Shown here: positions 5,468 to 20,848 of the stretch, one piece after another
Layout of the letters: every line of letters begins with the position of its first letter
How positions within the stretch are numbered: the stretch's first letter is position 1
NCBI GenBank assembly: GCA_027307195.1
Contig: DAHUXL010000080.1
Coordinates: 17,466-81,465 of the forward strand
Direction: 5' to 3'
Source: Rhodanobacter sp.
GTDB lineage: Bacteria > Pseudomonadota > Gammaproteobacteria > Xanthomonadales > Rhodanobacteraceae
DNA: 64,000 nt
Notes under the pieces: generated by a model
Told to the model about the DNA's origin: nothing
The model's input: the letters and a program-made list of their open reading frames with translations, nothing else
The model's database searches: none
Program-made: the position numbers and the translations under genes

Positions 5468-5638
5468 GCGCGATGGGCGCATGCTTCGCTGCATATCGCC
5501 TGTACGCCTGACTGGTCGGGTTTTGCGATCTCGCCCGATGCCCTCAGAATAAGCAGGTACCGAACCATGATCGTGACGCAGGACAACCGTCATCGAGAGC
5601 CGACGGGTATACCTGCGTCAAAGCATCACCATGGAAAA

Positions 5639-7108
5639 ATGCACACCGTGTCATTTCGACTGAGCAAGGCAACTCCCGGCGACCGGCTGCGCGCATGCGT
5701 GCTGGGCGCCGTGCTGTGCGGGTTGGCCGGTTGTGCCGCGCCACTGCCCAAGCTGACATCCCCCGTGCCGACCCAATGGCAGCATGCGATGGCCTCGGAT
5801 CCGGCCAAGCCGACCGATCTGCATGGCTGGTGGCATGCCTTCGGCGATTCCGACCTCGATGCACTGGTCGACCGTGCGCTGGCCAACAATCTTGATGTGG
5901 CGCAGGCAGTCGAAAGGTTGCGTGCCGTGCGCGCGCTGCACGACCGCTCCCAGGCACGCTACCTGCCGTCGCTGCGCGCGAGCACCAACGATGTGGTCGA
6001 ACCGAGCGCAAGTGCTTCCTACCTGCTGGTCGGCTTCGACGCCAGCTGGGAGTTTGGCCTGTTTGGCCGGGCCGAGGGCAGCCGGCGAGAAGCCCAGGGG
6101 GCGCTGGACGCCGGCATCGCCGACCTGCGCAGTGCGCAGGTCTCGCTGGTCGCCGAAGTCGTGCGTGAGTGGATCGAGCTGCGCAGCGCCCAGCAGCAGG
6201 AAAAACTGCTGTTGGGGATCAACCAGACCCGCGAGCACGAATGGCAATTGCAGCAGGTACGCCAGCGTCTGCAACTGGCAGCACCCGGTACAGTCGATCA
6301 GGCCCAAGCCGCATTCGCGCAATCCACGGCTGCCCTGGCGGCACCCCGGCAGGCCATCACGGCCAGCGCCCAGCGACTGGCCATGCTGCTCGGCCAGAAC
6401 CAGCCCGACGCCGCCTGGCTGCAACCGGGCACACCCCCCGAACTGGGCGCATGGCAACTCGCCAGTGCCCCAGCCGACCTGGTGCGCACGCGCCCGGAGA
6501 TTGCCCGTGCCGAAGCAGACGTGCTGCAGGCCGCCGGCGCACTGGCGCTGGCCCATGCCGATCTGTTTCCCAGCATCGGTCTTGGCGGGTCGATCGACTG
6601 GTCGACCGATATCGACAACAACCACAGGTTCGCCAACACGCCAAATTCGATCGTCTCGGTGGGACCGGAGCTCAATATTCCCTTGTTCGACTGGGGTATC
6701 CGACTGGCCGCCAAGCACGCGAAGGATCACGAATTGAAAGCCAGCGTGCTGGCTTACCGGCAAGCGGTGCTGCAAGGTGTGGCCGAGGTGGAAACCGCAT
6801 TGGGTGCCGTGCAGCAGCAGCAGCAGCGTGAACAGCACAGTCTGCTTGCATGGCAGGCGCTGCAGCGCGTCGATCAAGCCGCGCGGACGCGGGTGAGCCT
6901 GCGACTGGGCAGTCCGCTCGATCTTGCCGAGAGCCGCATAGCCGCCGATCAGGCCGCGATCGAACTGACCGATGCCCGCGCCGGGCACAACCTGGCCTAT
7001 GTGGCACTGTTCAAGGCACTCGGCGGCGCACCATTGCCGTCGGCTGACCAGATCGATGCGTCGCCGCAAGCACCATCCGGCTCCTCCCACAACGAGGCAC
7101 ACCGCTGA
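5639..7108 (+). CDS. TolC/NodT-family outer-membrane efflux lipoprotein (start 5567 or 5639)
   Basis: Lipobox LAGC, ALANNLDVAQA, RPEIARAE, YVALFKALGG typical of OMF proteins. Confidence 0.9.
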   Translation: MHTVSFRLSKATPGDRLRACVLGAVLCGLAGCAAPLPKLTSPVPTQWQHAMASDPAKPTDLHGWWHAFGDSDLDALVDRALANNLDVAQAVERLRAVRALHDRSQARYLPSLRASTNDVVEPSASASYLLVGFDASWEFGLFGRAEGSRREAQGALDAGIADLRSAQVSLVAEVVREWIELRSAQQQEKLLLGINQTREHEWQLQQVRQRLQLAAPGTVDQAQAAFAQSTAALAAPRQAITASAQRLAMLLGQNQPDAAWLQPGTPPELGAWQLASAPADLVRTRPEIARAEADVLQAAGALALAHADLFPSIGLGGSIDWSTDIDNNHRFANTPNSIVSVGPELNIPLFDWGIRLAAKHAKDHELKASVLAYRQAVLQGVAEVETALGAVQQQQQREQHSLLAWQALQRVDQAARTRVSLRLGSPLDLAESRIAADQAAIELTDARAGHNLAYVALFKALGGAPLPSADQIDASPQAPSGSSHNEAHR

Positions 7109-8238
7109 TGGTGGCCCTCGCGCGCAAGACGCTGATCTATGAGTGGCGGCGCTTTCTGCCGGCGATGCTGGCGGTCGGCTTCGCCGGCCTGCTGCAACTG
7201 CTGCAGATCGCCCTGGTGCTGGGCATCTTCGGTAGCACCAGCCTGTACATCACCGGTTCGTCGGCGGATGTGTGGATCGGCTATCCCGGTACGCAGAGCG
7301 TGGGTTCGGGCCGCACGATCAGTGCCGACGTGGAATCGCATGTGCTGATGGATCCGGCCGTGCAGCGGGTCGAACCGTACATCTGGGTCGATGGCGACTG
7401 GCGCGGCACCGGTGAAACCGGTGGCGTCTCGGTGTTCGTTTCCGGCATCGATCCGAGCCCCAATGGCCTGATGTTCTCCAAGGCATTGCCGGCCAGCTTG
7501 CGCGCGCGGCTGGCTGAGCCGGATGCCGTCGTCGTCGATCGTTCCGCGCTGGATCAACTTGGCGTCGCCATCGGCCAGACCGCCACCATCAACGGCCATC
7601 CGGTGCGGGTGGTCGGCATCAGCAGTGGCCTGCGAGCGCTGGGCGGCGTCAACGTGCTGTGCTCGCTGGATACCGCGCGGCGGTTGAATGACGATCCGGC
7701 CGACAGTGGCCCGACCTATCTGGTCGCCAGGCTGCACGACCCGAGCCAGGCCGATGCGGTGGCCGCGCGCCTGCGTGGTGACACCGCGTTCGGTCCTTAC
7801 ACGACCTGGAGCGCTACCGATTTCGCCCGCATCTCGGTGCTCTACTGGCTGTTCGATACCGGTGCCGGTGCCGGCGTACTGTTCCTGGCCGGCATCGTGT
7901 TTCTGGTCGGCGCGGTGATCACCAGCCAGACCCTGATCGCCGCGGTCAACGGCTCCGTGCGCGAATACGCCACCCTCAACGCACTCGGTGTGGGTGTGGC
8001 GGCCTTGCGCAGAGTGGTGCTGGAACAGGCGTTCTGGGTCGGCGCGCTGGGCCTGCTCGGCGCCAGCGTCCTCGGCATCGTACTGATGATGCTGGCGCGC
8101 AGTCAGGACGTGCCGGTGGTGCTGAACGTGCCCGCGGCGCTGGCCTGCATCGTCCTGGTGATGGGTCTCGCCGCCGTCTCCGGACTGGCCGCGATGCGCA
8201 GCCTGCGTCGCGCCGATCCCGCCACCTTGCTGAGATAA
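7108..8238 (+). CDS. ABC exporter permease, FtsX/MacB-like (DevC-type)
   Basis: TM1, periplasmic domain, three C-terminal TMs; REYATLNALG motif; TGATG coupling to upstream gene. Confidence 0.87.
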   Translation: MVALARKTLIYEWRRFLPAMLAVGFAGLLQLLQIALVLGIFGSTSLYITGSSADVWIGYPGTQSVGSGRTISADVESHVLMDPAVQRVEPYIWVDGDWRGTGETGGVSVFVSGIDPSPNGLMFSKALPASLRARLAEPDAVVVDRSALDQLGVAIGQTATINGHPVRVVGISSGLRALGGVNVLCSLDTARRLNDDPADSGPTYLVARLHDPSQADAVAARLRGDTAFGPYTTWSATDFARISVLYWLFDTGAGAGVLFLAGIVFLVGAVITSQTLIAAVNGSVREYATLNALGVGVAALRRVVLEQAFWVGALGLLGASVLGIVLMMLARSQDVPVVLNVPAALACIVLVMGLAAVSGLAAMRSLRRADPATLLR

Positions 8239-8240
8239 TC

Positions 8241-8996
8241 GTGATGCATCCCGCCACCGCCAGCGAACCCGTGCGCACGCCCGCCCTGCAGGCCGAAGGC
8301 ATCTGCAAGGCATTCGTTTCCGGCCAACAGCGCACACAGGTGCTGGATGGTCTGACGCTGAGTATCGAAGCCGGTGAACTGACCCTGATCTCCGGCCCGT
8401 CCGGCTGCGGCAAGAGTACCCTGCTGGCCGTGCTCAGCGGGCTGCAGAAGGTCGACAGCGGCCGCGTGCAGGCACTCGGCAGCGAACTGGGCCAGCTCGA
8501 TCTGCGTGCGCTGGAGCGCTTCCGCCTTCAGCACACCGGTTTCGTGTTCCAGGGTTTCAACCTGTTCCCCGCGCTGAGCGCGTTCGAGCAGGTCGAGTTG
8601 CCGCTGAATCACATGGGGCTGTCGCGCGATGAAGCCCGCCGACGCGCCCGCAGCTCGCTGGAAGAAGTCGGCCTGGGCCACCGCATGCGCTTGCGGCCGT
8701 CCGAGCTGTCCGGCGGCGAGAAGCAGCGTGTGGCGATCGCCCGTGCACTGGCCAAGGAACCGGAGCTGCTGTTCGCCGACGAGCCGACCAGCGCACTGGA
8801 CGCAGCCAACGGCCAGATGATCATCGACATCCTGCACCGGATCGCGCACACCCACGGAACCACCGTGCTGTGTGTCAGCCACGATCCACGTCTGGTCGTT
8901 CACGCCGACCGCGTGCTGGCGATGGAAGATGGCCGCATCTTGAGCGACCGGCGTACCCACGCGCCGCTCATCGACAACCAAGGAACTCCGTCATGA
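8241..8996 (+). CDS. ABC ATP-binding protein (LolD/DevA-like)
   Basis: Walker A GPSGCGKS, LSGGEKQRVAIARAL, Walker B LFADEPT, SHD switch. Confidence 0.95.
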   Translation: MMHPATASEPVRTPALQAEGICKAFVSGQQRTQVLDGLTLSIEAGELTLISGPSGCGKSTLLAVLSGLQKVDSGRVQALGSELGQLDLRALERFRLQHTGFVFQGFNLFPALSAFEQVELPLNHMGLSRDEARRRARSSLEEVGLGHRMRLRPSELSGGEKQRVAIARALAKEPELLFADEPTSALDAANGQMIIDILHRIAHTHGTTVLCVSHDPRLVVHADRVLAMEDGRILSDRRTHAPLIDNQGTPS

Positions 8997-9967
8997 AGCC
9001 GTCCCTCATGAAGCCACCCGCTGCCCGTCCGTCGCGGTACTTGCCCGGCATGCAGATCTGCCTCGCACTGACGCTGGCTTGTCTGCTGGCCGCCTGCTCC
9101 CGATCCACCGATGCGCCAACCAACGCCACTGCACAACCTGTCACCACCTACGCCGCGGTGGCACGCGGCAAAGTCGACATCGAAGGCGGTCTGCTGACGC
9201 TGTCGATGCCGCGCGAAGGCACGCTTGCCAGGGTTGCCGTGCATGAAGGCGATCGCGTCAGGCAAGGTCAGCTGCTCGCCGAACTGGATACCCAGCCGGC
9301 CACGCTGGCGGTCGACGCCGCCCAGGCGCAACTGGAGCAGGCACAGGCGCAGATGAAATTGCTCGCTGTCAAACAGACGGCGGCGAAGCAGCGCGCCGAG
9401 CGACTGGTCGCCGCCGTTGCCGCGGGCGCCGGGGACGGCCAGAGCGCCGACGACGCGCGCGAAGCGGCTGCCCAGCTTGATGCCGAACAGTTGAGCGACC
9501 GCGCAGCGCTGAGCATGGCCAGCCAGAAGCTGGACGAGGCCCGCTACGAGCTGAAGCAGCGCAGCCTGCTCGCCCCGTTCGACGCCGAGGTGGTGCAGGT
9601 GTCAGCGCAACCCGGCGCCAGCGTATCGCCCACGTCCGGTCCGTTGTTCACCCTGCTGCCGCAGAAACCGCGGATCATCCGCGCCGAACTCAACGACAGT
9701 TTCGTCGGGGTGATCCGACCCGGCATGTCCGCCGAGGTGGTGCCCGACAACGGTCGCGACGGCGCCCACTGGAACGCGCATGTGCTGCGCATTGGCCAGG
9801 TGTATGGTCCGGCCACGCTGGAAAACGACCCGCAGGTGCGCGCCAACGCGCGCACGGTGGAATGCGTGCTGGCATTCGACGAACCGCAGGATCTGCGCAT
9901 CGGACAGCGCGTGATGGTGCGTTTTGGCGCCACTTCGACACCTGTCCATGCCGCCCCGAAAGGCTGA
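8993..9967 (+). CDS. HlyD-family periplasmic adaptor (DevB-like)
   Basis: ATGA overlap, lipobox LAAC, lipoyl half-motifs VHEGDRVRQGQLL and APFDAEV around a coiled coil. Confidence 0.88.
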   Translation: MKPSLMKPPAARPSRYLPGMQICLALTLACLLAACSRSTDAPTNATAQPVTTYAAVARGKVDIEGGLLTLSMPREGTLARVAVHEGDRVRQGQLLAELDTQPATLAVDAAQAQLEQAQAQMKLLAVKQTAAKQRAERLVAAVAAGAGDGQSADDAREAAAQLDAEQLSDRAALSMASQKLDEARYELKQRSLLAPFDAEVVQVSAQPGASVSPTSGPLFTLLPQKPRIIRAELNDSFVGVIRPGMSAEVVPDNGRDGAHWNAHVLRIGQVYGPATLENDPQVRANARTVECVLAFDEPQDLRIGQRVMVRFGATSTPVHAAPKG

Positions 9968-10048: not shown

Positions 10049-10885
10049 GTGATCCAGCAAACTGATTTCTTCTTCGAGGGCGGGCGCAGCGGCGTACTGC
10101 TGATCCACGGCCTGACCGGCACGCCGATGGAAATGCGGCTGCTCGGCAAGGGCCTGAACCGCGCCGGCTTCACCGTGCACGGCATGCAGCTGGCCGGCCA
10201 CTGCGGCAACGCCGAAGACCTGCTCGCCACCGGCTGGCGCGACTGGTACGCCAGCGTCGAAAAAGCCGCCGACGAGATGCTCGAAAAAGTCGACCACCTG
10301 TTCGTCGGGGGTCTGTCGATGGGCGCGCTGCTGGCGTTGAAACTGGCCGCGGACCGGCCGCAGCAGGTCGCCGGCGTCGGCGTGTACGGCGCCACCTTCC
10401 GCTATGACGGCTGGAGCATTCCGTGGCTGGCGCGACTGTCGTTCCTGCTGCCGCTGCTGAAGAAACTCGGCATCGGTCGCAACCGCAGCTTCATGGAGCA
10501 ACCGCCCTACGGCATCCGCGACGAGCGCCTGCGCGCGCAGGTCAGCACCGCCATGCTCAGCGGCGACAGCGCCGCTGCCGGCCTGCCCGGCAACCCGTGG
10601 TATTCGCTGGCCGAGATGTATGGCCTCGCCGCCGAAGTGCGCAGCCAGCTTTCTCAAGTGACCGCACCCTGCCTGGTCGCGCACGCCAGCGAGGACGACG
10701 TCGCCAGCCTGAAGAATGCGGAACTGGTGATGCGCGAAGTCAGCGCACCGGCCGAGCTGCTGCTGCTCAAGGACAGCTACCACATGATCACCATCGACAA
10801 GGAACGGCGCACCCTGATCGATCGCTCGGCCGCGTTCTTCGACGACATCGCCGCGTCGAACGGCACGCAGCGCGTCGCGGCCTGA
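10049..10885 (+). CDS. Alpha/beta-hydrolase, carboxylesterase/monoacylglycerol-lipase-like
   Basis: HGLTG oxyanion loop, GLSMG nucleophile, EDDV Asp, SYH His. Confidence 0.88.
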   Translation: MIQQTDFFFEGGRSGVLLIHGLTGTPMEMRLLGKGLNRAGFTVHGMQLAGHCGNAEDLLATGWRDWYASVEKAADEMLEKVDHLFVGGLSMGALLALKLAADRPQQVAGVGVYGATFRYDGWSIPWLARLSFLLPLLKKLGIGRNRSFMEQPPYGIRDERLRAQVSTAMLSGDSAAAGLPGNPWYSLAEMYGLAAEVRSQLSQVTAPCLVAHASEDDVASLKNAELVMREVSAPAELLLLKDSYHMITIDKERRTLIDRSAAFFDDIAASNGTQRVAA

Positions 10886-11265
10886 TGATGTCGGTGGCGG
10901 GTTCCATTTCTCCGCTGGTGGCGGGCCTGTGGTTGCTCAACATCGTGCTCGACACCGGCGGCCAGCTGGCGTTCAAGGCCGCTGCGGGAGACGAGGCGGC
11001 CGGTGACGGTCTGGCACGCTGGAAGCACATGGCATCACGGCCATGGCTGTGGCTCGGCGTCGCCAGCTATGTGGTCGAGTTCCTGGTGTGGATCGCGTTC
11101 CTGTCGCTGATCCCGCTGTCCGAAGGCGTGCTGCTGGGTTCGATCAACATCGTCGCGATCATGGTCGCCGGACGCTTCCTGTTCGGCGAGAAACTGACCC
11201 GGCTGCGCGTTGCCGGCATCCTGCTGGTGACGCTCGGCGTGGTGATCGTGGGGGTCGGCGGATGA
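10885..11265 (+). CDS. Small 4-TM EamA/SMR-type protein (ArnE/ArnF-like flippase subunit)
   Basis: 126 aa, GQLAFK, four hydrophobic helices, FGEKLT...GILLV motif. Confidence 0.8.
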   Translation: MMSVAGSISPLVAGLWLLNIVLDTGGQLAFKAAAGDEAAGDGLARWKHMASRPWLWLGVASYVVEFLVWIAFLSLIPLSEGVLLGSINIVAIMVAGRFLFGEKLTRLRVAGILLVTLGVVIVGVGG

Positions 11266-11657
11266 AACGCTTCTATCTGTTCGGCTTCCTGCTGTTGATG
11301 GGTTTCGACACCCTCGCGCAGATCAGTTTCAAATACGCCGGCACCCAGGCGCTGCCGGTCGCGGCCAGCATCGAATGGGTGTTGCGCGTGTTCGGTCAGC
11401 CATGGGTCTACGGCGCGGTGATCGGTTACGTCGGCGCGTTCTTCACCTGGATGGCCCTGCTCAAGCACGCACCGATCGGCCCCGCGTTCGCCGCCTCGCA
11501 TCTGGAAGTGGTGTCGGTGATGCTGCTGTCGATCTGGCTGTTCGAGGAGCACCTCAACACGGCCCGCGTGCTGGGTGCGATCGCGATCATCGCCGGGATC
11601 GTCTGCCTGGGCATGGCCGAAAGTCGCGAGCACGTGCCCGAACCTGCCGAAGCCTGA
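11262..11657 (+). CDS. Second small 4-TM EamA/SMR-type protein (ArnE/ArnF-like)
   Basis: ATGA overlap; 131 aa, AQISFK, LFEEHL...LGAIAII; paralog of the upstream gene. Confidence 0.8.
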   Translation: MKRFYLFGFLLLMGFDTLAQISFKYAGTQALPVAASIEWVLRVFGQPWVYGAVIGYVGAFFTWMALLKHAPIGPAFAASHLEVVSVMLLSIWLFEEHLNTARVLGAIAIIAGIVCLGMAESREHVPEPAEA

Positions 11658-11677
11658 GCACCGGCTAAGCTGCGCGC

Positions 11678-12883
11678 ATGCTGCCTCGCCGCCCCCACGA
11701 ACTGCCGCCCACCGCCGGCCTGCCGCTAAGGTTCGCCGACCTGCGCCCGGGCGCGCCGACCCTGGCTGCCGACCTCGCCGTGCAACTGGGCACGCCGCCG
11801 CTGCAACTGGAATGCTCCGGCACCGCGTCATTGCTGATCGCGTTGACCGCGCTGCATGAACGGCAGCCGCGACGTCGGCGTGTCGTGGTACCTGCCTACA
11901 CCTGTCCGCTGGTGGCGATCGCCGTGCGGCAGGCCGGGCTCGAATTGCAACTGTGCGATCTGCGGGCCGGTCACTACGACATGGATCCGGCTGCATTGCG
12001 TGCCGCCTGTGACGAACGCACGCTGGCGATCATCCCCACCCATCTGGCCGGCCGCGTCGCCGATGTCGCGGACGCGCTTGCCGTGGCACGCAGCGTCGGC
12101 GCCTACGTGATCGAGGATGCCGCGCAGGCGCTCGGCGCGCGTCGCAACGGCATCAGCGTGGGGCTCGCTGGCGACATCGGCTTTTTCAGTCTCGCTGCCG
12201 GCAAGGGGCTGTCAATCTACGAAGGTGGCCTGCTGCTGGCACGCGATCCCGCACTGCGCGAGCACCTCGCACGCACCGCCGCGCGCATCGTGCCGCACAG
12301 TATCGGCTGGGAATGGAAACGCAGCATCGAACTGCTCGGCTACACCGCGCTGTACCGACCACGCGGCCTGCGGCTGGCGTACGGCAATCCCCTCCGCCGC
12401 GCCCTGCGCCACGGCGATCCGGTGGCTGCGGTGGGCGACGATTTTCCGTTGACGATACCGCTGTACCGCGTCGGTCGCTGGCGCCAGGCGGTGGGCGCGC
12501 ATGCCGCCACGCGCATGCCCGCTTTTCTCGATCAACTGTCGGCACAGGCGCAACGCCGCCTGCCGCGACTGCGCCGGATCGACGGCGTCGAGGTACTCGA
12601 TGATCCTGCCGGTGCACAAGGTACCTGGCCGTTCCTGCTGCTGCTGCTACCCGACCAGCAACGTCGCGATACGGCGCTGACGCAGCTGTGGCCATCCGGC
12701 CTCGGCGTCAGCCGTCTGTTCATCCACGCCCTGCCCGATTACGCCTATCTCGCCGGCGTGGTGCCATCCCAGGACGTGCCGAACGCACGCGATTTCGCTG
12801 CACGCAGCCTGAGCATCAGCAACAGTCCATGGGTGACTGACGACGACCTCGAGACGATCTGCGGCGTACTCGAACGCGGCTGA
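11678..12883 (+). CDS. DegT/DnrJ/EryC1/StrS-family PLP sugar aminotransferase
   Basis: SGTASL, VPAYTC, IEDAAQA (PLP Asp), FSLAAGKG (Schiff-base Lys), EGG. Confidence 0.88.
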   Translation: MLPRRPHELPPTAGLPLRFADLRPGAPTLAADLAVQLGTPPLQLECSGTASLLIALTALHERQPRRRRVVVPAYTCPLVAIAVRQAGLELQLCDLRAGHYDMDPAALRAACDERTLAIIPTHLAGRVADVADALAVARSVGAYVIEDAAQALGARRNGISVGLAGDIGFFSLAAGKGLSIYEGGLLLARDPALREHLARTAARIVPHSIGWEWKRSIELLGYTALYRPRGLRLAYGNPLRRALRHGDPVAAVGDDFPLTIPLYRVGRWRQAVGAHAATRMPAFLDQLSAQAQRRLPRLRRIDGVEVLDDPAGAQGTWPFLLLLLPDQQRRDTALTQLWPSGLGVSRLFIHALPDYAYLAGVVPSQDVPNARDFAARSLSISNSPWVTDDDLETICGVLERG

Positions 12884-13043: not shown

Positions 13044-14684
13044 ATGACGACATCGCACCTGGCCAATCGCATCACGAGCCAGCTCGCCGGGAACCGGCGA
13101 CTGCACTGGATGGCGGCATTCTTCCTGCTGCTGCCGCCGGTGTTCTTTCTGTTTCCCGTGCCGATCGACGAGACGCGTTATCTGGCGGTTGCATGGAACA
13201 TGCGCTGGAGCGGGCAATGGCTGGTGCCGTGGCTCGACGGTGCGCCGTATTCGGACAAGGCTCCGCTGCTGTTCTGGCTGATCAACCTGGCTTGGTCGGT
13301 GACTGGCGTGCATGCCTGGGCTGTGCGGTTGCTGGAATTGCTGATCGCGCTGGCGACCGTGCCCCTGCTCGCCTCGCTGGGTCGCCGGTTGGGCGCCAGC
13401 GAGGACGCCGTGGAAAACGCACAGTGGCTCTGGCTGGGTTGCGCCGCACTGGCCTTCTACGCGGACGTCGTGATGTTCGATCTGCTGCTCACGTTCTGCA
13501 CGCTGGCGGCATGGCGCGCCACACCGGCGCTCGTGGGACGACACTGGCCAGGCGAGAGCCTGCTGATGGTGCTGGCTCTGGGGGCCGGCGTTCTCGTCAA
13601 GGGGCCGGTCGCGCTCCTGGTGGGCGGCATGCCGGCCCTGTTCGCGCCGTACTGGATGCCGGCGCTGCGTGTGCAACCGCTGGTGTTCTATCTGCGACTG
13701 CTCGGCATCATGGCCGTCGCCATCCTGCTGGTGCTGGCGTGGGCGATTCCCGCCGCGCGCGCAGGCGGTCCCCACTATGCAGACGCCATCTTCCTGCACC
13801 AGACCATGGGCCGCGTGGTGCACAGCTTCGCCCACGCCCGTCCCTGGTGGTGGTATCTGCCCATCCTGCCCCTGATGACACTGCCGTGGACGCTCTGCCT
13901 TGGACGCAACGCAACGGCAACCACTTCTTCATTGCGCCATCCCAGTGCGCCGGATCGCTTCGTGGCTGCAACGTTCATCCCGTGTTTCGTGGTCTTCAGC
14001 CTGATCAGCGGCAAGCAGCCGCACTATCTGCTGCCCCTGCTGCCGGCCTTGGCCCTGTTCGCAGGCGGACGCCTCGCGGCAGGCCGCTGGCGCCTATCGC
14101 CCTGGCGAGCGGGTGTGGCTCCGATGGCGCTCGGCCTGCTCGTGGCGCTGGGCCTGGGCTGGTGGGAAGCGCCAGGCTCTGGCCCGTGGGCCTGGGTGTG
14201 CGGTGGGCTCATCATGCTCATGGGCGTGCTGTATCCGCTGCGGCGTACGCATGCACTGTCGGGCAGCACCGTTGCACTCGGCATGCTGACAGCGATCATG
14301 TTGTGCAAGCTCGCCTTCGTGCTGAGCATCGGGCCACGCTACGACGTGCACACGATGGCGCAACGCATCGCGGCCGCTCAGCGCGCCGGTACCCCGCTGC
14401 TGTACGCCGGCTCGGAGTACGGTCTGTTCACGTTCGCTGGCCGCCTGACGGCCCCGATCCCCAGCGCCCATGATCCGGCCCAGGTTGCCGCCTGGGCCCA
14501 CGCACACCCCGACGGCTGGATCATCAGCAGCAATGAAGTCTGTCGGCAACCGGACAGTTCGCCGCTGTACCGGCAAGCCTACCTTGGGCGCAGCCTGGGG
14601 ATCTGGCAGGCCGGCGCGATCGATACCCAGGCTTGCAACGGCAATGAAACTGCCGTGCCCCGGCGCGATCCTGGCCATGCCTGA
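13044..14684 (+). CDS. ArnT/GT83-like GT-C membrane glycosyltransferase
   Basis: DETRYLAVA, DKAPLLFW, KGPVALL, HARPWWWYL, SGKQPHYLLP; many TMs. Confidence 0.85.
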   Translation: MTTSHLANRITSQLAGNRRLHWMAAFFLLLPPVFFLFPVPIDETRYLAVAWNMRWSGQWLVPWLDGAPYSDKAPLLFWLINLAWSVTGVHAWAVRLLELLIALATVPLLASLGRRLGASEDAVENAQWLWLGCAALAFYADVVMFDLLLTFCTLAAWRATPALVGRHWPGESLLMVLALGAGVLVKGPVALLVGGMPALFAPYWMPALRVQPLVFYLRLLGIMAVAILLVLAWAIPAARAGGPHYADAIFLHQTMGRVVHSFAHARPWWWYLPILPLMTLPWTLCLGRNATATTSSLRHPSAPDRFVAATFIPCFVVFSLISGKQPHYLLPLLPALALFAGGRLAAGRWRLSPWRAGVAPMALGLLVALGLGWWEAPGSGPWAWVCGGLIMLMGVLYPLRRTHALSGSTVALGMLTAIMLCKLAFVLSIGPRYDVHTMAQRIAAAQRAGTPLLYAGSEYGLFTFAGRLTAPIPSAHDPAQVAAWAHAHPDGWIISSNEVCRQPDSSPLYRQAYLGRSLGIWQAGAIDTQACNGNETAVPRRDPGHA

Positions 14685-14903: not shown

Positions 14904-15782
14904 TCACGATCGCACAGCGATCGCCTGCAGCAGCTGCAGGTTCAACGCATGCTGCTGCGCCTGCCAGCCGGCCAGCTGTGCCGGATCGATCTCGGGCTGC
15001 TCGTCCATTGCCGACAGCCGGCGTTTCCACCAGCTCCGGTAGCGGTAATGCGAGACCTCGCCGTTGATGTCGCTGCCGACCAGGCCATTGCGCAAACTGC
15101 CGATCAGCGCCACCGCGTGATCGGTCAACAGCAGGCCCTGATCCCAGTTGGTATGCGCCACTTCGGGTGAGAACGCATCCTTGTCGATCGACAGGTAGCT
15201 CGGCATCGTCTGCGTGCGTTGCGCTTCGACGAACGCATCGACCATTGACTCGGGCGTGTCGAAACCACGGAATGCATGCGCCAGCCCGAGCCGGCGCGAC
15301 CAGCCGGTATCCACGCCGATGCTCCAGTAGCTCAGCTTGCCGCGGCGCAGCGGGCTCAGGTAGTTCTCCCACGCATGACCAGCGCCGATATCAGCCGAGG
15401 TGATGCCAAGCACATGCACATGGCTGACCTGCGGCAACATCGCCACGCGACGCACCCACGAACCGCAATGCACGCCGAACGGAAAGCGCATGTTGTCCGG
15501 ATGGTTGTCCAGCACCACCACCTGGAAGGGTGTGCCCGACTGCAGGCGCGCGATCAGCGGCCAGCTCAGGTGATGGAAGTCGCCGCTGCCCATGAACACG
15601 GTGCCGTATTCGGCCGGCAGCAATTCGTCGAGCATCGTGCCGAAGCGCCGCATCGTCGCCAGCGAGCAGCCGAAGCGGATCGATTCCTGCCAGTGTGCCA
15701 GCGGCAATACCAGCCGGTCCGCCAGCGGCCCCACCGACTGGTCGATGTCGAGCACGACGGGTCGGTTCGCCAGGTTATTCAT
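14904..15782 (-). CDS. Arginase/ureohydrolase-fold metallohydrolase of unknown substrate
   Basis: GSGDFHH, LDNHPD, SIDKDAFSP correspond to arginase metal-binding motifs; start re-picked at MNNLANR. Confidence 0.75.
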   Translation of the reverse strand: MNNLANRPVVLDIDQSVGPLADRLVLPLAHWQESIRFGCSLATMRRFGTMLDELLPAEYGTVFMGSGDFHHLSWPLIARLQSGTPFQVVVLDNHPDNMRFPFGVHCGSWVRRVAMLPQVSHVHVLGITSADIGAGHAWENYLSPLRRGKLSYWSIGVDTGWSRRLGLAHAFRGFDTPESMVDAFVEAQRTQTMPSYLSIDKDAFSPEVAHTNWDQGLLLTDHAVALIGSLRNGLVGSDINGEVSHYRYRSWWKRRLSAMDEQPEIDPAQLAGWQAQQHALNLQLLQAIAVRS

Positions 15783-16845
15783 CAGTAGCCTCCGTGGCCG
15801 CCTGCCAGCTGCGATCACTTTCGAAATGACTGCCGAGTCGACGCAGTAATGCGCGCAGCAGTGGATTGCGGGCATATACCGCATGACGGGTGAAGGTCAT
15901 GCGCGCACCCAGGAAGGATTTGACCTCGGGGTCGGTCCAGCCGGCCACGTAATGACTCAGGCCTTGCTGGCGCGCGTAGTCGAGATTGTGCATCCAGCTG
16001 ACGAAGTACAGGTTGTGCTCGCGTGCCTGCGGATAGGCGAAGCCGACATATTTGTCGATCAGCTTGCCGCCATGCTCGTAGCAGAGATTCCAGCCGATCA
16101 TCTGCCCGGCATGCCGATAGACGAAGACCACGCCACCACTGCCGGCATCCTGCAGCACCTCGCGGAAGAACGCCGCGCTCAGCCGGTCGAAATGGACCTC
16201 GCTCTGCGCGTACACGTTGTCGAACAGCGCATAGAACTCGGCCAGCGTCGCCGCGTCGTCGAAGCGTGCGTCACCGGTGCTCACCGCCTCGATTTCCAGA
16301 TCGGCGCGCGAACGCAACTTGCGCCGGATGTTCTTCCGCCGACCGGACGACAGTCGCGCGAGATACTCGTCGCCCGAGGCGAAATCGATCGGCACCCACG
16401 CCAGTGCCTGCCCTTCCAGCAGCACATAGCCTTCGCGTTCGCAGGCAGCGGCGAATTCACGCGCATACGCATTGTCGGCATCGCTGAGCAGGGGCGAATC
16501 CTGCGCGATGTCCTTGACGATCATCAGCCTGCATTCACGCCCATAGGCCGCCTTCAGCCCCTGCGCCAGCACAGCGGGTGTCACGTCCGACGGTAACGGC
16601 GCGTACTCGGACACGGTGGTGCCGGCAAAGCGCGTGCGCCAGCGCAGCAGGCGCCCCCACCAGCGATACAGCGGCAGGTGTGTCACGCGACGGCGCAGCG
16701 CATCGTCCGCCGTGGTCAGCAGATCGAACGGCGCCACGAAGCTTGGCATGCCTTGCGGCGACAGTTGTACCAAGAATCCGATCGGCGGCTGCGCCATGAA
16801 GTGCGCCAGGAGTGCGTCCGGCTCCAATTGCGAAATGAAAGGCAT
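15775..16845 (-). CDS. FemAB-like / Acetyltransf_6 GNAT-fold acyltransferase
   Basis: FASGDEYLARLSSGRRKNIRRKLR and NLYF...YARQQGL..Y.AG motifs. Confidence 0.8.
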   Translation of the reverse strand: MPFISQLEPDALLAHFMAQPPIGFLVQLSPQGMPSFVAPFDLLTTADDALRRRVTHLPLYRWWGRLLRWRTRFAGTTVSEYAPLPSDVTPAVLAQGLKAAYGRECRLMIVKDIAQDSPLLSDADNAYAREFAAACEREGYVLLEGQALAWVPIDFASGDEYLARLSSGRRKNIRRKLRSRADLEIEAVSTGDARFDDAATLAEFYALFDNVYAQSEVHFDRLSAAFFREVLQDAGSGGVVFVYRHAGQMIGWNLCYEHGGKLIDKYVGFAYPQAREHNLYFVSWMHNLDYARQQGLSHYVAGWTDPEVKSFLGARMTFTRHAVYARNPLLRALLRRLGSHFESDRSWQAATEATDE

Positions 16846-16913
16846 GAGTAAGCCAATTTGCCTAGACTGGTGTGTATGTAAAACTGTCGCGTGCAGCCAG
16901 GAGCCTACTCGTC

Positions 16914-17186
16914 ATGACCGATACGACCCAGCAACAGGTTTTCGACATCATCGCCAAGCAGGCCAAGATCGACGTGACCACGATCAAGCCCGAGTCCACC
17001 TTGAAGGATCTGGGCATCGCCTCGCTGGAGGCGATCGAGCTGATCTTCGACATCGAGGAACACTTCAACATCACCTTCCCCGACCAGCAAGGCGCGAACT
17101 TCGACACCGACACGACGCAGAGCCTGGTCGATGCCGTGCAGAAGGCGCTGGACGAAAAAGCCGCTGCGGGCGAAGGATCGAAGTAA
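16914..17186 (+). CDS. Acyl carrier protein (NodF-like, atypical GIASLE motif)
   Basis: 90 aa acidic protein, LKDLGIASLEAIELIFDIEEHF; AGGAG RBS at 16899-16903. Confidence 0.9.
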   Translation: MTDTTQQQVFDIIAKQAKIDVTTIKPESTLKDLGIASLEAIELIFDIEEHFNITFPDQQGANFDTDTTQSLVDAVQKALDEKAAAGEGSK

Positions 17187-18418
17187 TGTCGACCGTTTCC
17201 ATGCGTCGCGTGGTGGTTACCGGCATGGGCGCGATCAGCCCGCTCGGCGTCGGTGCAGAAGCGCTGTGGCAGGGCCTGCGCGAAGGTCGCAGTGCCATTG
17301 GCCCGCTGCAGCATCCCGATGCCGGGCGCCTGCGCGTGAAGATCGCGGCGCAGGTACCGGCGAGTTTCGATCCTACCGCAAATATCGACGAACGCACCCT
17401 GATCATGCTCGACCGAACCTCGGAATTTGCGCTGCATGCCGCGCGCGAGGCGGTTACGCAATCCGGACTGGACTTCAGTCAAGGCCAAACCGGCGCGCGT
17501 ACCGCCGTGGTCGTCGGCACGGGTGTCGGCGGCGAAACCACCCAGGACGAACAGAGCAAGCGGCTGTACGGCGAGAATTCCCAGCGCGCGCATCCGCTTT
17601 CCATCGTGCGGGTGATGACGAATGCATCGGCCAGCCAGATCAGCATTGCCTACGGTCTGCGCGGCCCCACCTTTGCCGTCGCCAGCGCCTGCGCCTCGGC
17701 GAACCACGCCATCATCCAGGCGGCGCAGATGATCCGCTACGGACTGGCCGACGTCGCCGTTACCGGCGGCACCGAAGCTTGTCTGACCTACGGCGCGTTG
17801 CGCGCATGGGAAGCGATGCGCGTACTGGCCGACGATACCTGTCGACCGTTCAGCATCAATCGCCGCGGGCTGGTGCTCGGCGAGGGCGCCGGCATCTTCG
17901 TGCTGGAATCGATGGAACATGCACAGGCGCGCGGCGCGGTGATCCTGGCCGAACTGGCCGGTGTCGGCATGACTGCAGACGCTACCGATATCGTAATGCC
18001 GAGCGCGAATGGCTCTTCTGCGGCGATGAGCCAGGCGCTGGCCGACGCCGGCCTCGCCCCGCAGGACGTCGACTACATCAATGCCCACGGCACCGGCACG
18101 CTTGCCAACGATGTCACCGAGAGCCGGGCGATCCGCCTCGCGTTCGGCGCCCACGCCGATCGCCTTGCAGTGTCCTCGACCAAGTCGATGCACGGCCACG
18201 CACTGGGCGCATCCGGTGCGCTGGAACTGGTGGCCGTGGTCGGCGCCCTGCGCGACAGCGTGGTGCCGCCCACCGCGAACCTGGACCAGGCCGACCCGGC
18301 CTGCGATCTGGACTACGTGCCGAACATCGCCCGCGAGATGCCGGTGCGTGCGGCGCTGAGCAATTCGTTCGCGTTCGGTGGGCTCAACGCGGTGCTGGCA
18401 CTCAAGCGCGCGCCGTAA
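17186..18418 (+). CDS. Beta-ketoacyl-ACP synthase, FabF family, NodE-like subgroup
   Basis: Cys SACAS, His NAHGTGT, KSMHGH; short loop WEAMRVLADDTCRPFS and DIVMPS resemble recalled rhizobial NodE; TAATG coupling to ACP. Confidence 0.92.
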   Translation: MSTVSMRRVVVTGMGAISPLGVGAEALWQGLREGRSAIGPLQHPDAGRLRVKIAAQVPASFDPTANIDERTLIMLDRTSEFALHAAREAVTQSGLDFSQGQTGARTAVVVGTGVGGETTQDEQSKRLYGENSQRAHPLSIVRVMTNASASQISIAYGLRGPTFAVASACASANHAIIQAAQMIRYGLADVAVTGGTEACLTYGALRAWEAMRVLADDTCRPFSINRRGLVLGEGAGIFVLESMEHAQARGAVILAELAGVGMTADATDIVMPSANGSSAAMSQALADAGLAPQDVDYINAHGTGTLANDVTESRAIRLAFGAHADRLAVSSTKSMHGHALGASGALELVAVVGALRDSVVPPTANLDQADPACDLDYVPNIAREMPVRAALSNSFAFGGLNAVLALKRAP

Positions 18419-18457: not shown

Positions 18458-18490
18458 AAAGAACCCGGCGACAAGTCGCCGGGTTCTTTT
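18458..18490. terminator. Bidirectional intrinsic terminator between convergent KAS and aminotransferase genes
   Basis: AAAGAACCCGGCGAC-aa-GTCGCCGGGTTCTTT perfect inverted repeat with A/T tails. Confidence 0.85.
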
Positions 18491-18516
18491 TGGGCGCGAT
18501 CCATGCGCGGCCGACA

Positions 18517-19917
18517 TCAGCCCTTCTTGGCTTTGGTCAGCAGTTGATCGAGCAGCGACATCGCCAGATCGATTTCTTCGTGACCGATGTCCAGTGACGG
18601 CGCGAACGTGATCACGTTCTTGTACCAGCCGCCCACGTCCAGCACGAGACCGATCTTCTTGCCGTTGTGCTCGAGATCGCCGGCCAGGCCAATGTCGACC
18701 ATCTTGTCGAGCAGTTCCTTGTTCGGCGTGAAGCCGTCATCGGTGCAGATTTCGGCGCGCAGCGCGAGGCCGAGGCCGTCGACGTCGCCGATTTCCTTGT
18801 GCTTCTTCTGCAGGTCGCGCAGGCCTTCGAGGAAATGCGCGCCCTTCTTCGGCACCGTGGTCTCGTAGTCCAGCTCGTAACCCATCTTGATCACTTCCAG
18901 ACCCAGCGCGGTACCGAGCGGGTTGGAGTTGAAGGTGGAATGGGTCGAGCCCGGCGGGAAGATCGTCGGATTGATCAGCTCTTCGCGCGCCCACAGACCG
19001 GACAGCGGGTTCAGGCCGTTGGTCAGCGCCTTGCCGAACACCACGATGTCCGGCGTCACGCCGAAATTCTCGATCGACCACAGCTTGCCGGTGCGCCAGA
19101 AGCCCATCTGGATTTCATCGGACACCATCAGGATGCCGTACTTGTCGAGCACCTTCTTCAAGCCCTTGAAGAAGCCCGGCGGCGGGATCACGTAACCACC
19201 GGTGCCCTGGATCGGCTCGACGTAGAACGCGGCGTATTCGCACTGGTTCGTCTTCGGATCCCACACGCCGTTGTATTCGGTCTCGAACAGGCGCTCGAAC
19301 TGGCGCACGCAGCTATCGGAATACTCTTCCGCCGTCATGCCCTTCGGGCGACGGAACGGATACGGGAACGGCAGGAACATCGCGCGCTCGCCGAAGTGGC
19401 CGAAGCGGCGGCGGTAGCGGTAGCTCGACGTGATCGAGGAGGCACCGAGCGTGCGGCCATGGTAGCCGCCCTCGAACGCGAACATCAGACTCTTGCCGTT
19501 GCAGGCGTTGCGCACGATCTTCAGCGAATCCTCGATCGCCTGCGCGCCACCCACGTTGAAGTGCACGCGGCCATCCAGACCGAACTTCTTCTTCGCATCC
19601 AGCGCCACCGTCTTGGCCAGCTCGATGCGGGTCTGGTGCAGGTACTGGCTGGCTACCTGCGGCAGGCGGTCGATCTGATCCTTGAGCACGTTGTTGAGGC
19701 GCTTGTTGCCGTAACCGAAGTTCACGGCCGAGTACCACATCTGCAGGTCGAGGAACGGCGTGCCGGCGGTGTCGAACATGTAGCTGCCTTCGCCGTGACG
19801 GAAGATCTTCGGCGGGTCCACGTAATGCACGGTGTCACCGAACGAGCTGTACTTCGCTTCGTCGGCGAGCAGCTGCGCGTCGTCGATGAAGCCGGCGGCG
19901 GTCTTGTCGATTTTCAT
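18517..19917 (-). CDS. Class-III PLP aminotransferase (GabT/EctB-like fold, substrate unknown)
   Basis: GGYHGRT, YVEPIQGTGG, SDEIQMG, VFGKAL; start re-picked at MKIDKT. Confidence 0.9.
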   Translation of the reverse strand: MKIDKTAAGFIDDAQLLADEAKYSSFGDTVHYVDPPKIFRHGEGSYMFDTAGTPFLDLQMWYSAVNFGYGNKRLNNVLKDQIDRLPQVASQYLHQTRIELAKTVALDAKKKFGLDGRVHFNVGGAQAIEDSLKIVRNACNGKSLMFAFEGGYHGRTLGASSITSSYRYRRRFGHFGERAMFLPFPYPFRRPKGMTAEEYSDSCVRQFERLFETEYNGVWDPKTNQCEYAAFYVEPIQGTGGYVIPPPGFFKGLKKVLDKYGILMVSDEIQMGFWRTGKLWSIENFGVTPDIVVFGKALTNGLNPLSGLWAREELINPTIFPPGSTHSTFNSNPLGTALGLEVIKMGYELDYETTVPKKGAHFLEGLRDLQKKHKEIGDVDGLGLALRAEICTDDGFTPNKELLDKMVDIGLAGDLEHNGKKIGLVLDVGGWYKNVITFAPSLDIGHEEIDLAMSLLDQLLTKAKKG

Positions 19918-19972: not shown

Positions 19973-20704
19973 TCAGGACAGCGCGTGCGCAGGCTCGTGA
20001 TGCCCGTGCCGATGACGCGCATGCTCGTGATGCGCATGGCTGACCAGGCTGCCGTCAAGCAGCTTCGGCAGGAACTCCAGCGCGTCCTCGAAGCCGGTGA
20101 TCGGCACGTAGTCGATGCCGGTCGCGCGGCAATGCTCGATCAGGCGATGCTTGGCGAACACGAAGTCGACGCGGTCGGCGGCACAGAAATCCGAGGCGCC
20201 GTCGCCGATCAGCAGGGTCTTCGCGCCGGTCGTGCGGGCCTGCGCCACGCAGGCGCACTTGCAGGTGCCACTGCGGCAACCGTCGGCCTGGAACGGCGAG
20301 GTCAGCTGCCATTGCTTCGGCGGCTCGGCCGGCGACAGGTGGTTCGCCGCCAGCGGCAGCGTGTCCAGGCCATAGCGGCCGAGAATCTTGTGGATCGCGT
20401 AGTCGAGACCGTCGCTGACCACGCGGATCGGCACGTTCAGTTCACGCGCCTTCGCCACGAACCCCGGAAACGCGTGGTCGATCCACAGCTCGCCCAGATG
20501 CGCGTCGAGTTCCGCGCGGGTCATCTGCAGCAGGTCGACCTGGCCGGACATGCACTCGCGCGAGCCGATGCGGCCGGCACGCCAGTCCTGCTCCAGCACT
20601 TCCCAGCCGGGACGGCCGAAACGGTCGAGCAGGGAGTCGATCACGTCTTCGACGGAAATGGTGCCGTCGAAATCACACAGAATGGTCCAGCCGGATTCGG
20701 ACAT
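19973..20704 (-). CDS. HAD-IB phosphatase (MtnX-like) with His-rich C-terminal tail
   Basis: CDFDGT, VSDG, IGDGASD motifs; tail HAHHEHARHRHGHHEPAH. Confidence 0.88.
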   Translation of the reverse strand: MSESGWTILCDFDGTISVEDVIDSLLDRFGRPGWEVLEQDWRAGRIGSRECMSGQVDLLQMTRAELDAHLGELWIDHAFPGFVAKARELNVPIRVVSDGLDYAIHKILGRYGLDTLPLAANHLSPAEPPKQWQLTSPFQADGCRSGTCKCACVAQARTTGAKTLLIGDGASDFCAADRVDFVFAKHRLIEHCRATGIDYVPITGFEDALEFLPKLLDGSLVSHAHHEHARHRHGHHEPAHALS

Positions 20705-20815
20705 CGGAAGCTCACGCCAATAACGATACTGCACAGGGTAGAAACGCTGCCTTTCGGCGTCCTTTCCCGCACCCGGCAAGTTCATCCTTCCGTACAGCCG
20801 ACTGTCGCCACCGTT

Positions 20816-20848
20816 GGTAAGCAAACCGAAAGCTGGGCGGGGTAGCTT
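20816..20848 (+). promoter_or_regulatory. Candidate PmrA/QseB-type box (weak) plus -10 for the PAP2 gene
   Basis: GGTAAG-N5-CGAAAG followed 10 nt later by TAGCTT. Confidence 0.45.

What the first reader, a model, noticed from the sequence alone, without database searches (positions are those of the whole stretch)
16845..18418. NodF/NodE-like ACP-ketosynthase pair in a non-rhizobial genome, divergent from the GNAT across only 68 bp
Seen: the KAS has the shortened loop WEAMRVLADDTCRPFS and DIVMPS, the ACP has GIASLE rather than GxDSLD, and the two genes are TAATG-coupled and share a 68-bp divergent promoter region with the GNAT. Known: rhizobial NodFE make alpha,beta-polyunsaturated acyl chains that NodA transfers to an amino sugar. 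Inference: the resemblance is recalled, not aligned; a special acyl chain is made on a dedicated ACP and transferred by the GNAT to an amino group, loosely paralleling Nod-factor logic.
Basis: partly seen in the sequence, partly recalled or inferred. Interest (0 to 1): 0.65.

Follow-up and report, generated by a model that had tools for sequence, protein, structure and literature searches.

The report
NodE-family ACP–ketosynthase pair in Rhodanobacter
A soil bacterium (Rhodanobacter) carries a private acyl carrier protein and chain-extending enzyme of the same family as the rhizobial nodulation protein NodE. The pair is an optional part of a widely conserved, still uncharacterised gene cluster that probably builds and exports an amino-lipid.

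Summary
A 90-aa ACP (16914-17186) and a 410-aa KAS II (17186-18418) overlap as TAATG. They lie 68 bp from a divergent FemAB-like tandem-GNAT gene.

The KAS is not the housekeeping FabF, which sits in a normal fab operon elsewhere (43% identity). It falls in a well-supported clade with genuine NodE (52% identity). It shares a 7-residue loop deletion and other motifs with that clade. Grouping with FabF is rejected (AU p = 5e-7).

It is not a NodE orthologue:
- It lacks NodE-only substitutions.
- Its ACP is not NodF-like.
- The genome has no NodA.
- Such pairs occur in about 11% of sampled Pseudomonadota.

In the order sample, 33 of 41 genomes with the GNAT also have the KAS, usually within 1 kb. 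Eight keep the cluster without it. In another class, ACP-KAS forms an operon with only the HAD phosphatase, class III aminotransferase and esterase.

The GNAT's nearest folds are aminoacyl-tRNA-dependent transferases, so acyl transfer by the GNAT is unsupported.

Best reading: the pair is an optional lipid-tail supply module of an undescribed amino-lipid pathway. The product is unknown and no paper was found. Other first-reader notes in this scan report similar modules on other genomes.

The parts
16914..17186 (+). Dedicated acyl carrier protein (90 aa), phosphopantetheine serine in LGIASLE
   Evidence: Pfam PP-binding 6.7e-10. All NCBIfam ACP models score below cut-off (best 44.7 against 71). 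AGGAG lies about 10 nt upstream of the ATG. The serine is conserved in all orthologues.
17186..18418 (+). NodE-family beta-ketoacyl-ACP synthase II (410 aa), Cys-His-His triad intact, start overlaps the ACP stop (TAATG)
   Evidence: (TIGR03150 FabF 454 bits, cut-off 493.75).
16846..16913 (.). 68-bp divergent intergenic region with a conserved block GTAAGC-N5-TGCCTAGACT (16848-16868) next to the GNAT start
   Evidence: Alignment of 78 related loci; the block is conserved at 90% or more. No sigma-70 consensus was found.
18462..18491 (+). GC-rich hairpin (AACCCGGCGAC/GTCGCCGGGTT) followed by CTTTTT, a likely terminator of the ACP-KAS unit
   Evidence: Read directly from the sequence. The consensus scan did not list it, probably because of its 2-nt loop.
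15775..16845 (-). FemAB-like tandem-GNAT transferase (356 aa), divergent neighbour
   Evidence: PF04339 7.7e-13. AF2 model pLDDT 81. Best folds are Sbb17/Sba18, FemX and the MprF C-domain.
14904..15782 (-). Ureohydrolase (arginase)-fold protein, start overlaps the GNAT stop by 8 nt
   Evidence: Pfam Arginase 5.2e-6. AF2 model pLDDT 74. Best folds are proclavaminate amidinohydrolase, agmatinase and guanidinopropionase.
18517..19917 (-). Class III PLP aminotransferase (likely start at Met48 of the long ORF), convergent with the KAS
   Evidence: PF00202 5.1e-70. Orthologues are 63-91% identical across classes.
19973..20704 (-). MtnX-like HAD-IB phosphatase (DFDGT and GDGASD motifs), always next to the aminotransferase
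   Evidence: TIGR01489 84.3 bits, above cut-off. PDB 2fea 1.4e-16. Motifs.
10049..10885 (+). Alpha/beta hydrolase of the monoacylglycerol-lipase / Est30 type (GLSMG nucleophile)
   Evidence: Pfam Hydrolase_4 2.8e-21. PDB 5xks 9.7e-33.
10885..12883 (+). Small EamA-type transporter genes (boundaries not refined) followed by a DegT-family aminotransferase
   Evidence: The X. sacchari orthologous region is annotated as two EamA genes plus DegT.
5468..9967 (+). TolC-like, MacB/FtsX permease, ABC ATPase and HlyD adaptor: a tripartite exporter that travels with the cluster
   Evidence: Conserved next to the cluster in other genera.
13044..14684 (+). ArnT-like GT-C glycosyltransferase, a variable insert rather than part of the conserved set
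   Evidence: Found in only about 8 of 80 related loci and absent in X. sacchari.

Best explanation
The pair is a dedicated ACP plus a NodE-family KAS II. It acts as an optional lipid-tail supply module of a conserved, uncharacterised cluster.

The constant core of that cluster is a HAD phosphatase plus a class III aminotransferase. The core is joined in varying combinations by four other elements:
- a FemAB-like transferase with a ureohydrolase;
- a monoacylglycerol-lipase-type esterase;
- an EamA pair with DegT;
- a MacB-TolC exporter.

Inferred mechanism:
1. Housekeeping FabD loads malonate on the private ACP.
2. The KAS condenses it with an acyl primer from the general pool. This gives an acyl (possibly 3-oxo or otherwise unusual) chain held on its own carrier, apart from bulk fatty-acid synthesis.
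3. That chain becomes the tail of a small amine or amino-alcohol head group made by the aminotransferase and phosphatase.
4. The FemAB-like enzyme more probably adds an amino acid from aminoacyl-tRNA, and the ureohydrolase then trims it.

What is shown: the gene structure, the family placement and the gene linkage. What is inferred: every chemical step and the product.
For: The KAS is an intact condensing enzyme of the NodE-family clade and is not the housekeeping FabF.

It is always preceded by its own ACP, here with a TAATG overlap.

Order sample of 301 genomes:
- 33 have both the KAS and the GNAT, 8 have the GNAT only, and 3 have the KAS only.
- In 29 of the 33 the two genes lie within 1 kb.
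- 22 of these are divergent, 6 are co-directional with 17-42 bp gaps, and 1 is convergent.

Gene order is shuffled between genera but the gene set persists.

Five genomes of another class carry a stand-alone ACP>KAS>HAD>aminotransferase>esterase operon, flanked by unrelated genes.

The HAD has intact catalytic motifs and is always next to the aminotransferase. This points to a phosphorylated keto substrate rather than an acyl-ACP.

The esterase is nearest to monoacylglycerol lipases.

The GNAT fold is nearest to aminoacyl-tRNA transferases, and the arginase-fold protein is nearest to ureohydrolases.
Against: - No product is known and no paper was found.
- The cluster contains no acyl-ACP-specific transferase of a proven kind.
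- Co-occurrence counts come from related genomes and are not independent.
- Fold matches have TM scores of only about 0.5. Acyl-CoA-using tandem GNATs also match (TM about 0.45), so the donor of the GNAT is open.
- 16 of 25 genomes with the aminotransferase lack any NodE-family KAS. One orthologue carries an in-frame stop. The pair is therefore dispensable for the core function.
Confidence: 0.55

Rival explanations
1. Nod-factor-like logic. The ACP-KAS pair makes a special (for example unsaturated) chain. The divergent FemAB-like GNAT transfers it directly from the ACP to an amino group. The neighbouring arginase-fold enzyme plays a NodB-like unmasking role.
For: - KAS and GNAT are tightly adjacent in 29 of 33 genomes, including co-directional KAS>GNAT with 17-42 bp gaps in at least four genera.
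- The divergent spacer is conserved at 68 bp.
- The KAS is in the NodE family.
- In Rhodobacterales a sister-type pair sits beside an LpxD-paralogue N-acyltransferase, so such pairs do partner with N-acyltransferases.
Against: - The GNAT's best structural matches are aminoacyl-tRNA-dependent enzymes.
- The arginase-fold protein resembles ureohydrolases, not deacetylases.
- Eight of 41 genomes have the GNAT without ACP-KAS.
- Five genomes of another class have ACP-KAS with no linked GNAT.
- The genome has no NodA.
- The KAS lacks the NodE-only gating-residue change.
Confidence: 0.2
2. Beta-amino acyl route. The KAS performs one condensation. The resulting 3-oxoacyl-ACP, shielded from FabG on the private carrier, is the direct substrate of the class III aminotransferase. 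This gives a 3-aminoacyl chain, or an alkylamine after hydrolysis and decarboxylation by the esterase. The free-standing genes would parallel the KS-aminotransferase step of iturin/mycosubtilin synthetases.
For: - The cluster has no reductase, dehydratase or enoyl reductase.
- KAS and aminotransferase are linked in two classes, with the KAS abutting the HAD-aminotransferase-esterase genes.
- Class III enzymes include amine transaminases (established knowledge).
Against: - The aminotransferase is always paired with an intact HAD phosphatase, which this route does not explain.
- 16 of 25 genomes with the aminotransferase have no NodE-family KAS.
- NodE itself works with housekeeping reductases (established knowledge).
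Confidence: 0.15
3. An ordinary spare FabF isozyme with a spare ACP. It contributes to bulk fatty-acid synthesis under some conditions, and its position in the cluster is incidental.
For: - Overall FabF-like sequence with an intact triad and gating Phe.
- Many NodE-family pairs elsewhere are orphans next to housekeeping genes.
Against: - The pair forms a clade separate from FabF with its own indel.
- It scores below the FabF equivalog cut-off.
- It has a private ACP.
- Linkage to the same gene set persists through many rearrangements and in two classes.
Confidence: 0.07

Closest known systems
Rhizobial NodF/NodE (dedicated ACP plus KAS II that make the polyunsaturated acyl chain of Nod factors)
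   Same: - An ACP gene sits immediately upstream of, and is coupled to, a KAS II.
- The KAS is 51-55% identical to genuine NodE and lies in the same starred clade.
- Both share the 7-residue loop deletion and the WEA, CRPF, HGTGT, D-I-V and SMH motifs.
- Neither locus has reductase or dehydratase genes.
   Different: - The KAS is not inside the NodE clade, and exclusive sisterhood is not favoured (AU p = 0.063).
- It keeps the gating Phe (AFGG) where NodE has Met (AMGG), and it lacks HAHC.
- The ACP lacks the NodF insertion.
- The genome has no NodA, and no NodD match at E <= 1e-5.
- The partners are a HAD phosphatase, a class III aminotransferase, a FemAB-like transferase and a ureohydrolase.
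Housekeeping FabF with AcpP (fabH-fabD-fabG-acpP-fabF operon)
   Same: Same fold and catalytic triad. Identity is 41-43%. The nearest solved structures are all FabF.
   Different: - The genome has a canonical fab operon elsewhere.
- The window KAS scores below the FabF equivalog cut-off, whereas that copy passes.
- A FabF grouping is rejected.
Rhodobacterales LpxD-paralogue / ACP / NodE-family KAS locus (Paracoccus, Pseudorhodobacter; uncharacterised)
   Same: An ACP-KAS pair of the same clade (KAS 53-54% identical, ACP 38% identical). It sits beside an N-acyltransferase of envelope-lipid metabolism.
   Different: The partner is an LpxD-type left-handed beta-helix acyltransferase. There is no HAD, aminotransferase or FemAB-like gene. 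The function there is also unproven.
MprF / FemX / Sbb17-type aminoacyl-tRNA-dependent transferases (for the neighbouring GNAT)
   Same: Tandem-GNAT fold. These are the best Foldseek matches, with E about 1e-12.
   Different: TM score is only about 0.5, with 11-18% identity. There is no membrane flippase domain. The donor and acceptor are untested.

Membership tests
NodE (nodulation KAS II) | KAS II with a Cys-His-His triad that groups with NodE rather than FabF | tested here: met
   The triad is present. The KAS shares a starred clade (100/98) with NodE, apart from FabF. A FabF grouping is rejected (p = 5e-7).
NodE (nodulation KAS II) | Falls inside, or is the exclusive sister of, the clade of genuine NodE | tested here: not met
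   NodE is its own 100/100 clade. In the wider tree it groups with chromosomal rhizobial paralogues, while the window clade sits with other lineages. Forced sisterhood costs 18.4 lnL (p-AU 0.063).
NodE (nodulation KAS II) | NodE-specific residues (Met at the gating Phe position, AMGG; HAHC after the second His) | tested here: not met
   The window has AFGG and HGHA.
NodE (nodulation KAS II) | Partnered with a NodF-type ACP and lying in a nod gene context (nodABC, nodD) | tested here: not met
   The ACP is 30% identical to NodF over 37 aa and lacks the NodF insertion. The genome has no NodA or NodD match at E <= 1e-5; only generic NodB- and NodC-like genes lie on another contig.
NodE (nodulation KAS II) | Makes trans-polyunsaturated C16-C18 chains | not testable with these tools
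   Needs acyl-ACP or lipid analysis.
Housekeeping FabF (TIGR03150 equivalog) | Scores above the curated equivalog cut-off and lies in the fab operon after acpP | tested here: not met
   It scores 454 bits against a cut-off of 493.75. The copy on contig C130 scores 654 bits and follows fabH-fabD-fabG-acpP.
Dedicated (non-AcpP) acyl carrier protein | PP-binding domain with a conserved serine, below the AcpP equivalog scores, encoded with its own condensing enzyme | tested here: met
FemAB/MprF-type aminoacyl-tRNA-dependent transferase (neighbouring 'GNAT') | Tandem-GNAT fold | tested here: met
   PF04339 hit. The AF2 model matches Sbb17, FemX and MprF.
FemAB/MprF-type aminoacyl-tRNA-dependent transferase (neighbouring 'GNAT') | Uses aminoacyl-tRNA as donor | not testable with these tools
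   Acyl-CoA tandem GNATs also match at slightly lower scores. A biochemical assay is needed.

The most novel reading that the evidence does not exclude
The cluster encodes an undescribed cationic amino-lipid pathway built from exchangeable modules.
- Tail: a NodE-family ACP-KAS makes a special, perhaps 3-oxo, chain.
- Head group: the class III aminotransferase and the HAD phosphatase make an amino-alcohol.
- Decoration: a FemAB-like enzyme adds arginine from Arg-tRNA, and a ureohydrolase trims it to ornithine. This would be a tRNA-dependent route to an ornithyl lipid, for which no tRNA exists.
- Delivery: the product is flipped or exported by the EamA pair and the MacB-TolC pump, to remodel the envelope against cationic peptides.
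Probability: 0.2. Interest if true: 0.8.

Novelty: new variant of a known kind. Interest (0 to 1): 0.5.

Why it matters
Dedicated ACP-ketosynthase pairs are how bacteria make unusual acyl chains for signalling and envelope lipids. NodFE is the textbook case.

This work shows that the NodE family is a broad proteobacterial family of portable two-gene modules. The modules dock onto different partner enzymes:
- NodA in rhizobia;
- an LpxD paralogue in Rhodobacterales;
- a HAD / aminotransferase / FemAB-like / ureohydrolase cluster in Xanthomonadales and one other class.

This last cluster is found in most sampled Rhodanobacteraceae and in some plant-associated Xanthomonas. It sits among efflux pumps, two-component systems and lipid A-modifying genes. 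No function has been published for it.

Identifying its product could reveal a new membrane or secreted amino-lipid. It could also reveal a new use of tRNA-dependent transferases.

Tried and rejected
Literature. Five searches found nothing on this cluster. They covered DUF482/PF04339/COG3146, bacterial ceramide synthase, nodE with Xanthomonas, Rhodanobacter lipids, and 3-oxotetradecanoate.

Sequence search of the PDB. It gave no homologue for the GNAT or the arginase-fold protein. Fold search was used instead.

The search for related loci returned only near relatives (all Rhodanobacter-like). Diversity had to come from the genome search.

The representative search was swamped by giant multi-KS polyketide synthases. 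Only 18 single-domain representatives were usable.

Metagenome contigs for two representatives were too short to be informative.

The promoter/terminator consensus scan found nothing in the spacer or after the KAS.

Considered and rejected:
- The GIASLE (Asp to Ala) change is not meaningful, because that residue varies freely.
- The arginase-fold protein is not a deacetylase, because its fold matches are ureohydrolases.
- The ArnT-like gene is not part of the conserved system, because it is absent from most related loci.
- A link to bacterial ceramide synthase could not be tested. PF04339 does hit in Caulobacter, but the identity of that gene was not established.
Full report
**What is there.** The window comes from a Rhodanobacter genome. 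The KAS and the neighbouring GNAT have 86-96% identical orthologues in named Rhodanobacter genomes, and the best match of the GNAT is R. panaciterrae. The sequence gives these features:
- a 90-aa ACP at 16914-17186;
- a 410-aa KAS at 17186-18418, whose ATG overlaps the ACP stop as TAATG;
- an AGGAG upstream of the ACP start;
- a GC-rich hairpin plus T-run after the KAS (18462-18491);
- a divergent gene starting at 16845, which leaves a 68-nt spacer.

Pfam and NCBIfam identify a PP-binding ACP below all AcpP cut-offs. The KAS II scores 454 bits on the FabF equivalog model, below the cut-off of 493.75. The divergent gene is a FemAB_like (PF04339) protein.

**Surroundings**.
- Upstream: a sensor kinase, a TolC-MacB-ABC-HlyD exporter, an alpha/beta hydrolase, small EamA transporters, a DegT aminotransferase and an ArnT-like GT-C.
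- Next, on the minus strand: a ureohydrolase-fold gene whose start overlaps the stop of the FemAB-like gene.
- Downstream, convergent with the KAS: a class III aminotransferase and an MtnX-like HAD-IB phosphatase.
- Further downstream: a PAP2 phosphatase, an RND pump and a two-component system.

**Is the KAS NodE-like?** Yes, at the family level.
- The genome has a canonical fabH-fabD-fabG-acpP-fabF operon on another contig. That FabF passes the equivalog cut-off (654 bits) and is only 43% identical to the window KAS.
- tblastn against plasmids gave 51-55% identity to KAS genes on symbiosis plasmids.
- In R. leguminosarum bv. trifolii the matching gene sits in nodD-nodF-nodE-nodL-nodM. In Mesorhizobium and R. 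tropici it follows nodA and an ACP, so these are genuine NodE.
- In a 58-sequence maximum-likelihood tree rooted on FabB, housekeeping FabF from four gamma- and one alpha-proteobacterium forms one starred clade.
- A separate starred clade (100/98) holds the window KAS with its Xanthomonadales orthologues (98/98), NodE (100/100), a Rhodobacterales group and 18 database representatives.
- Forcing the window clade together with FabF costs 158 lnL (p-AU 5e-7).
- The clade has shared derived characters: a 7-residue deletion (WEAMRVLADDT-CRPFS against FabF ALSTRNDNPQAASRPWD), HGTGT for HGTST, D-I-V for H-M-T, and SMHGH for SMTGH.

**Is it NodE?** No.
- Relations inside the clade are a polytomy.
- In a 73-sequence tree, NodE groups with chromosomal rhizobial paralogues. 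The window clade sits nearer other lineages.
- Exclusive sisterhood with NodE is not favoured (p-AU 0.063).
- NodE alone has Met at the gating Phe position (AMGG) and HAHC. The window keeps AFGG and HGHA.
- The ACP is 30% identical to NodF over 37 residues, lacks the NodF insertion, and is about as close to E. coli AcpP (27% over 73 residues). It is 38% identical to the Paracoccus ACP.
- The Asp-to-Ala change in GIASLE is not conserved among orthologues.
- The genome has no NodA.
- NodE-family KAS genes occur in 44 of 401 sampled Pseudomonadota genomes. Every one that I placed in the tree fell inside the clade. Many are orphan ACP-KAS pairs beside unrelated genes. A NodE-like pair outside rhizobia is therefore not rare in itself. 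JGI already labels these proteins 'nodulation protein E'.

**Linkage within the order.** In 80 Rhodanobacter-like loci the block ureohydrolase / GNAT / ACP / KAS / aminotransferase / HAD is conserved. The ArnT-like gene is present in only about 8 of the 80. The order-level sample of 301 genomes gave these counts:

| Class | Genomes |
|---|---|
| GNAT orthologue present | 41 |
| KAS orthologue (at least 62% identical) present | 36 |
| Both | 33 |
| GNAT only | 8 |
| KAS only | 3 |

- In 29 of the 33 with both, the two genes lie within 1 kb: 22 divergent, 6 co-directional with gaps of 17-42 bp, and 1 convergent.
- Two of the three 'KAS only' genomes carry divergent paralogues of the GNAT and the ureohydrolase nearby.
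- Gene order differs widely between genera, but the same set recurs.
- The minimal form is HAD / aminotransferase / GNAT / ureohydrolase. Genomes with the cluster but no ACP-KAS have only FabF-level KAS genes anywhere in the genome.
- These counts come from related genomes and are not independent events.

**Linkage across classes.** Five genomes of one genus in another class carry ACP>KAS>HAD>aminotransferase>esterase as a compact unit.
- In one contig the KAS stop abuts the HAD start, and the aminotransferase overlaps the esterase by 4 nt.
- The unit is flanked by unrelated genes.
- Only a distant, unlinked FemAB_like paralogue is present.
- Aminotransferase orthologues (63-87% identical) occur in 25 of 401 genomes of the phylum sample, and 16 of those lack a NodE-family KAS.

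The HAD-aminotransferase pair is therefore the constant core. ACP-KAS is an add-on that has joined it in at least two lineages.

**What the partners look like.**
- The GNAT model (pLDDT 81) best matches the aminoacyl-tRNA-dependent peptide synthases Sbb17/Sba18, FemX and the MprF synthase domain. Acyl-CoA tandem GNATs rank lower, and TM scores are about 0.5.
- The arginase-fold model (pLDDT 74) best matches proclavaminate amidinohydrolase, agmatinase and guanidinopropionase, not deacetylases.
- The HAD has intact DxDGT and GDGxxD motifs, and its only PDB relative is MtnX.
- The esterase is nearest to bacterial monoacylglycerol lipase and Est30.
- The aminotransferase is nearest to archaeal ornithine/GABA-type enzymes, without a specific assignment.

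**Interpretation.** The gene structure, family placement and linkage are shown. The chemistry is inferred.

I read the pair as a private tail-making module. By analogy with NodFE (established knowledge), FabD would load malonate on the private ACP. The KAS would extend a primer from the general pool, with housekeeping enzymes doing any reductions.

The constant HAD next to the aminotransferase argues for a phosphorylated keto substrate, and so for a small amino-alcohol-type head group. That makes the acyl chain a substituent rather than the aminotransferase's substrate.

The GNAT more likely adds an amino acid. The tightly coupled ureohydrolase suggests arginine trimmed to ornithine.

The alternative in which 3-oxoacyl-ACP is aminated directly remains possible, but it does not explain the phosphatase.

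In Rhodobacterales the same kind of pair sits beside an LpxD paralogue. From memory, lipid A of Rhodobacter and Paracoccus carries amide-linked 3-oxo-14:0. That would fit a KAS product kept from reduction on a private ACP. This is a lead, not a result.

**Limits.** No literature on the cluster was found. The donor and acceptor of every enzyme are untested. Other first-reader notes in this scan describe similar ACP-KAS and GNAT-ureohydrolase modules on other genomes. None of those notes carries a checked identification.

**Verdict.** The pair is a new variant of the NodFE kind of module, in an uncharacterised and widely conserved cluster. It is of moderate interest by itself and of higher interest as an entry point to the cluster.

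Noticed in passing
window 14904-16845 (minus strand): The FemAB-like transferase is translationally coupled (8-nt overlap) to a ureohydrolase-fold protein. Fold matches are aminoacyl-tRNA transferases for the first and amidinohydrolases for the second. This suggests arginyl transfer followed by urea removal, giving an ornithyl group.
   Followed up: partly
L109:7461-10209, L160, L161 (Paracoccus and other Rhodobacterales): An LpxD paralogue, a dedicated ACP and a NodE-family KAS form a conserved trio. It may be the source of the amide-linked 3-oxo-14:0 reported in Rhodobacter and Paracoccus lipid A (recalled from memory, not checked).
   Followed up: partly
window 16848-16868: The block GTAAGC-N5-TGCCTAGACT abuts the GNAT start codon and is at least 90% conserved across 78 related loci. 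It may be a regulator site or an unusual translation-initiation region. No Shine-Dalgarno is evident for the GNAT gene.
   Followed up: partly
window 13044-14684: The ArnT-like GT-C gene is present in only about 8 of 80 related loci and is absent in X. sacchari. It is a variable insert, not part of the conserved cluster.
   Followed up: partly
window 19973-20058 and 20704-20824: The longest ORFs of the aminotransferase and the HAD overrun their likely starts (Met48 and Met41). With the shorter starts the two genes no longer overlap. The HAD ends in a His-rich tail (HAHHEHARHRHGHHEPAH).
   Followed up: no
own genome contig C18:19928-21430: A NodB-like deacetylase (39% identical) and a NodC-like GT2 (33% identical) lie side by side. 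The genome has no NodA. They are probably a generic polysaccharide synthase and deacetylase pair.
   Followed up: no
L155:8507-10076, L156 (6-7 Mb genomes of a family that also carries NodE): A chromosomal NodF-like ACP (60-62% identical to NodF) and a KAS form the sister group of plasmid NodE. They lie between unrelated genes (ureD, GST) and have no nod context.
   Followed up: partly
own genome contigs C82:3-953 and C18:2-283: A second, canonical PF04339 FemAB_like gene (402 bits) is split across two contig ends. The cluster copy is a distant member of the family (49 bits).
   Followed up: no
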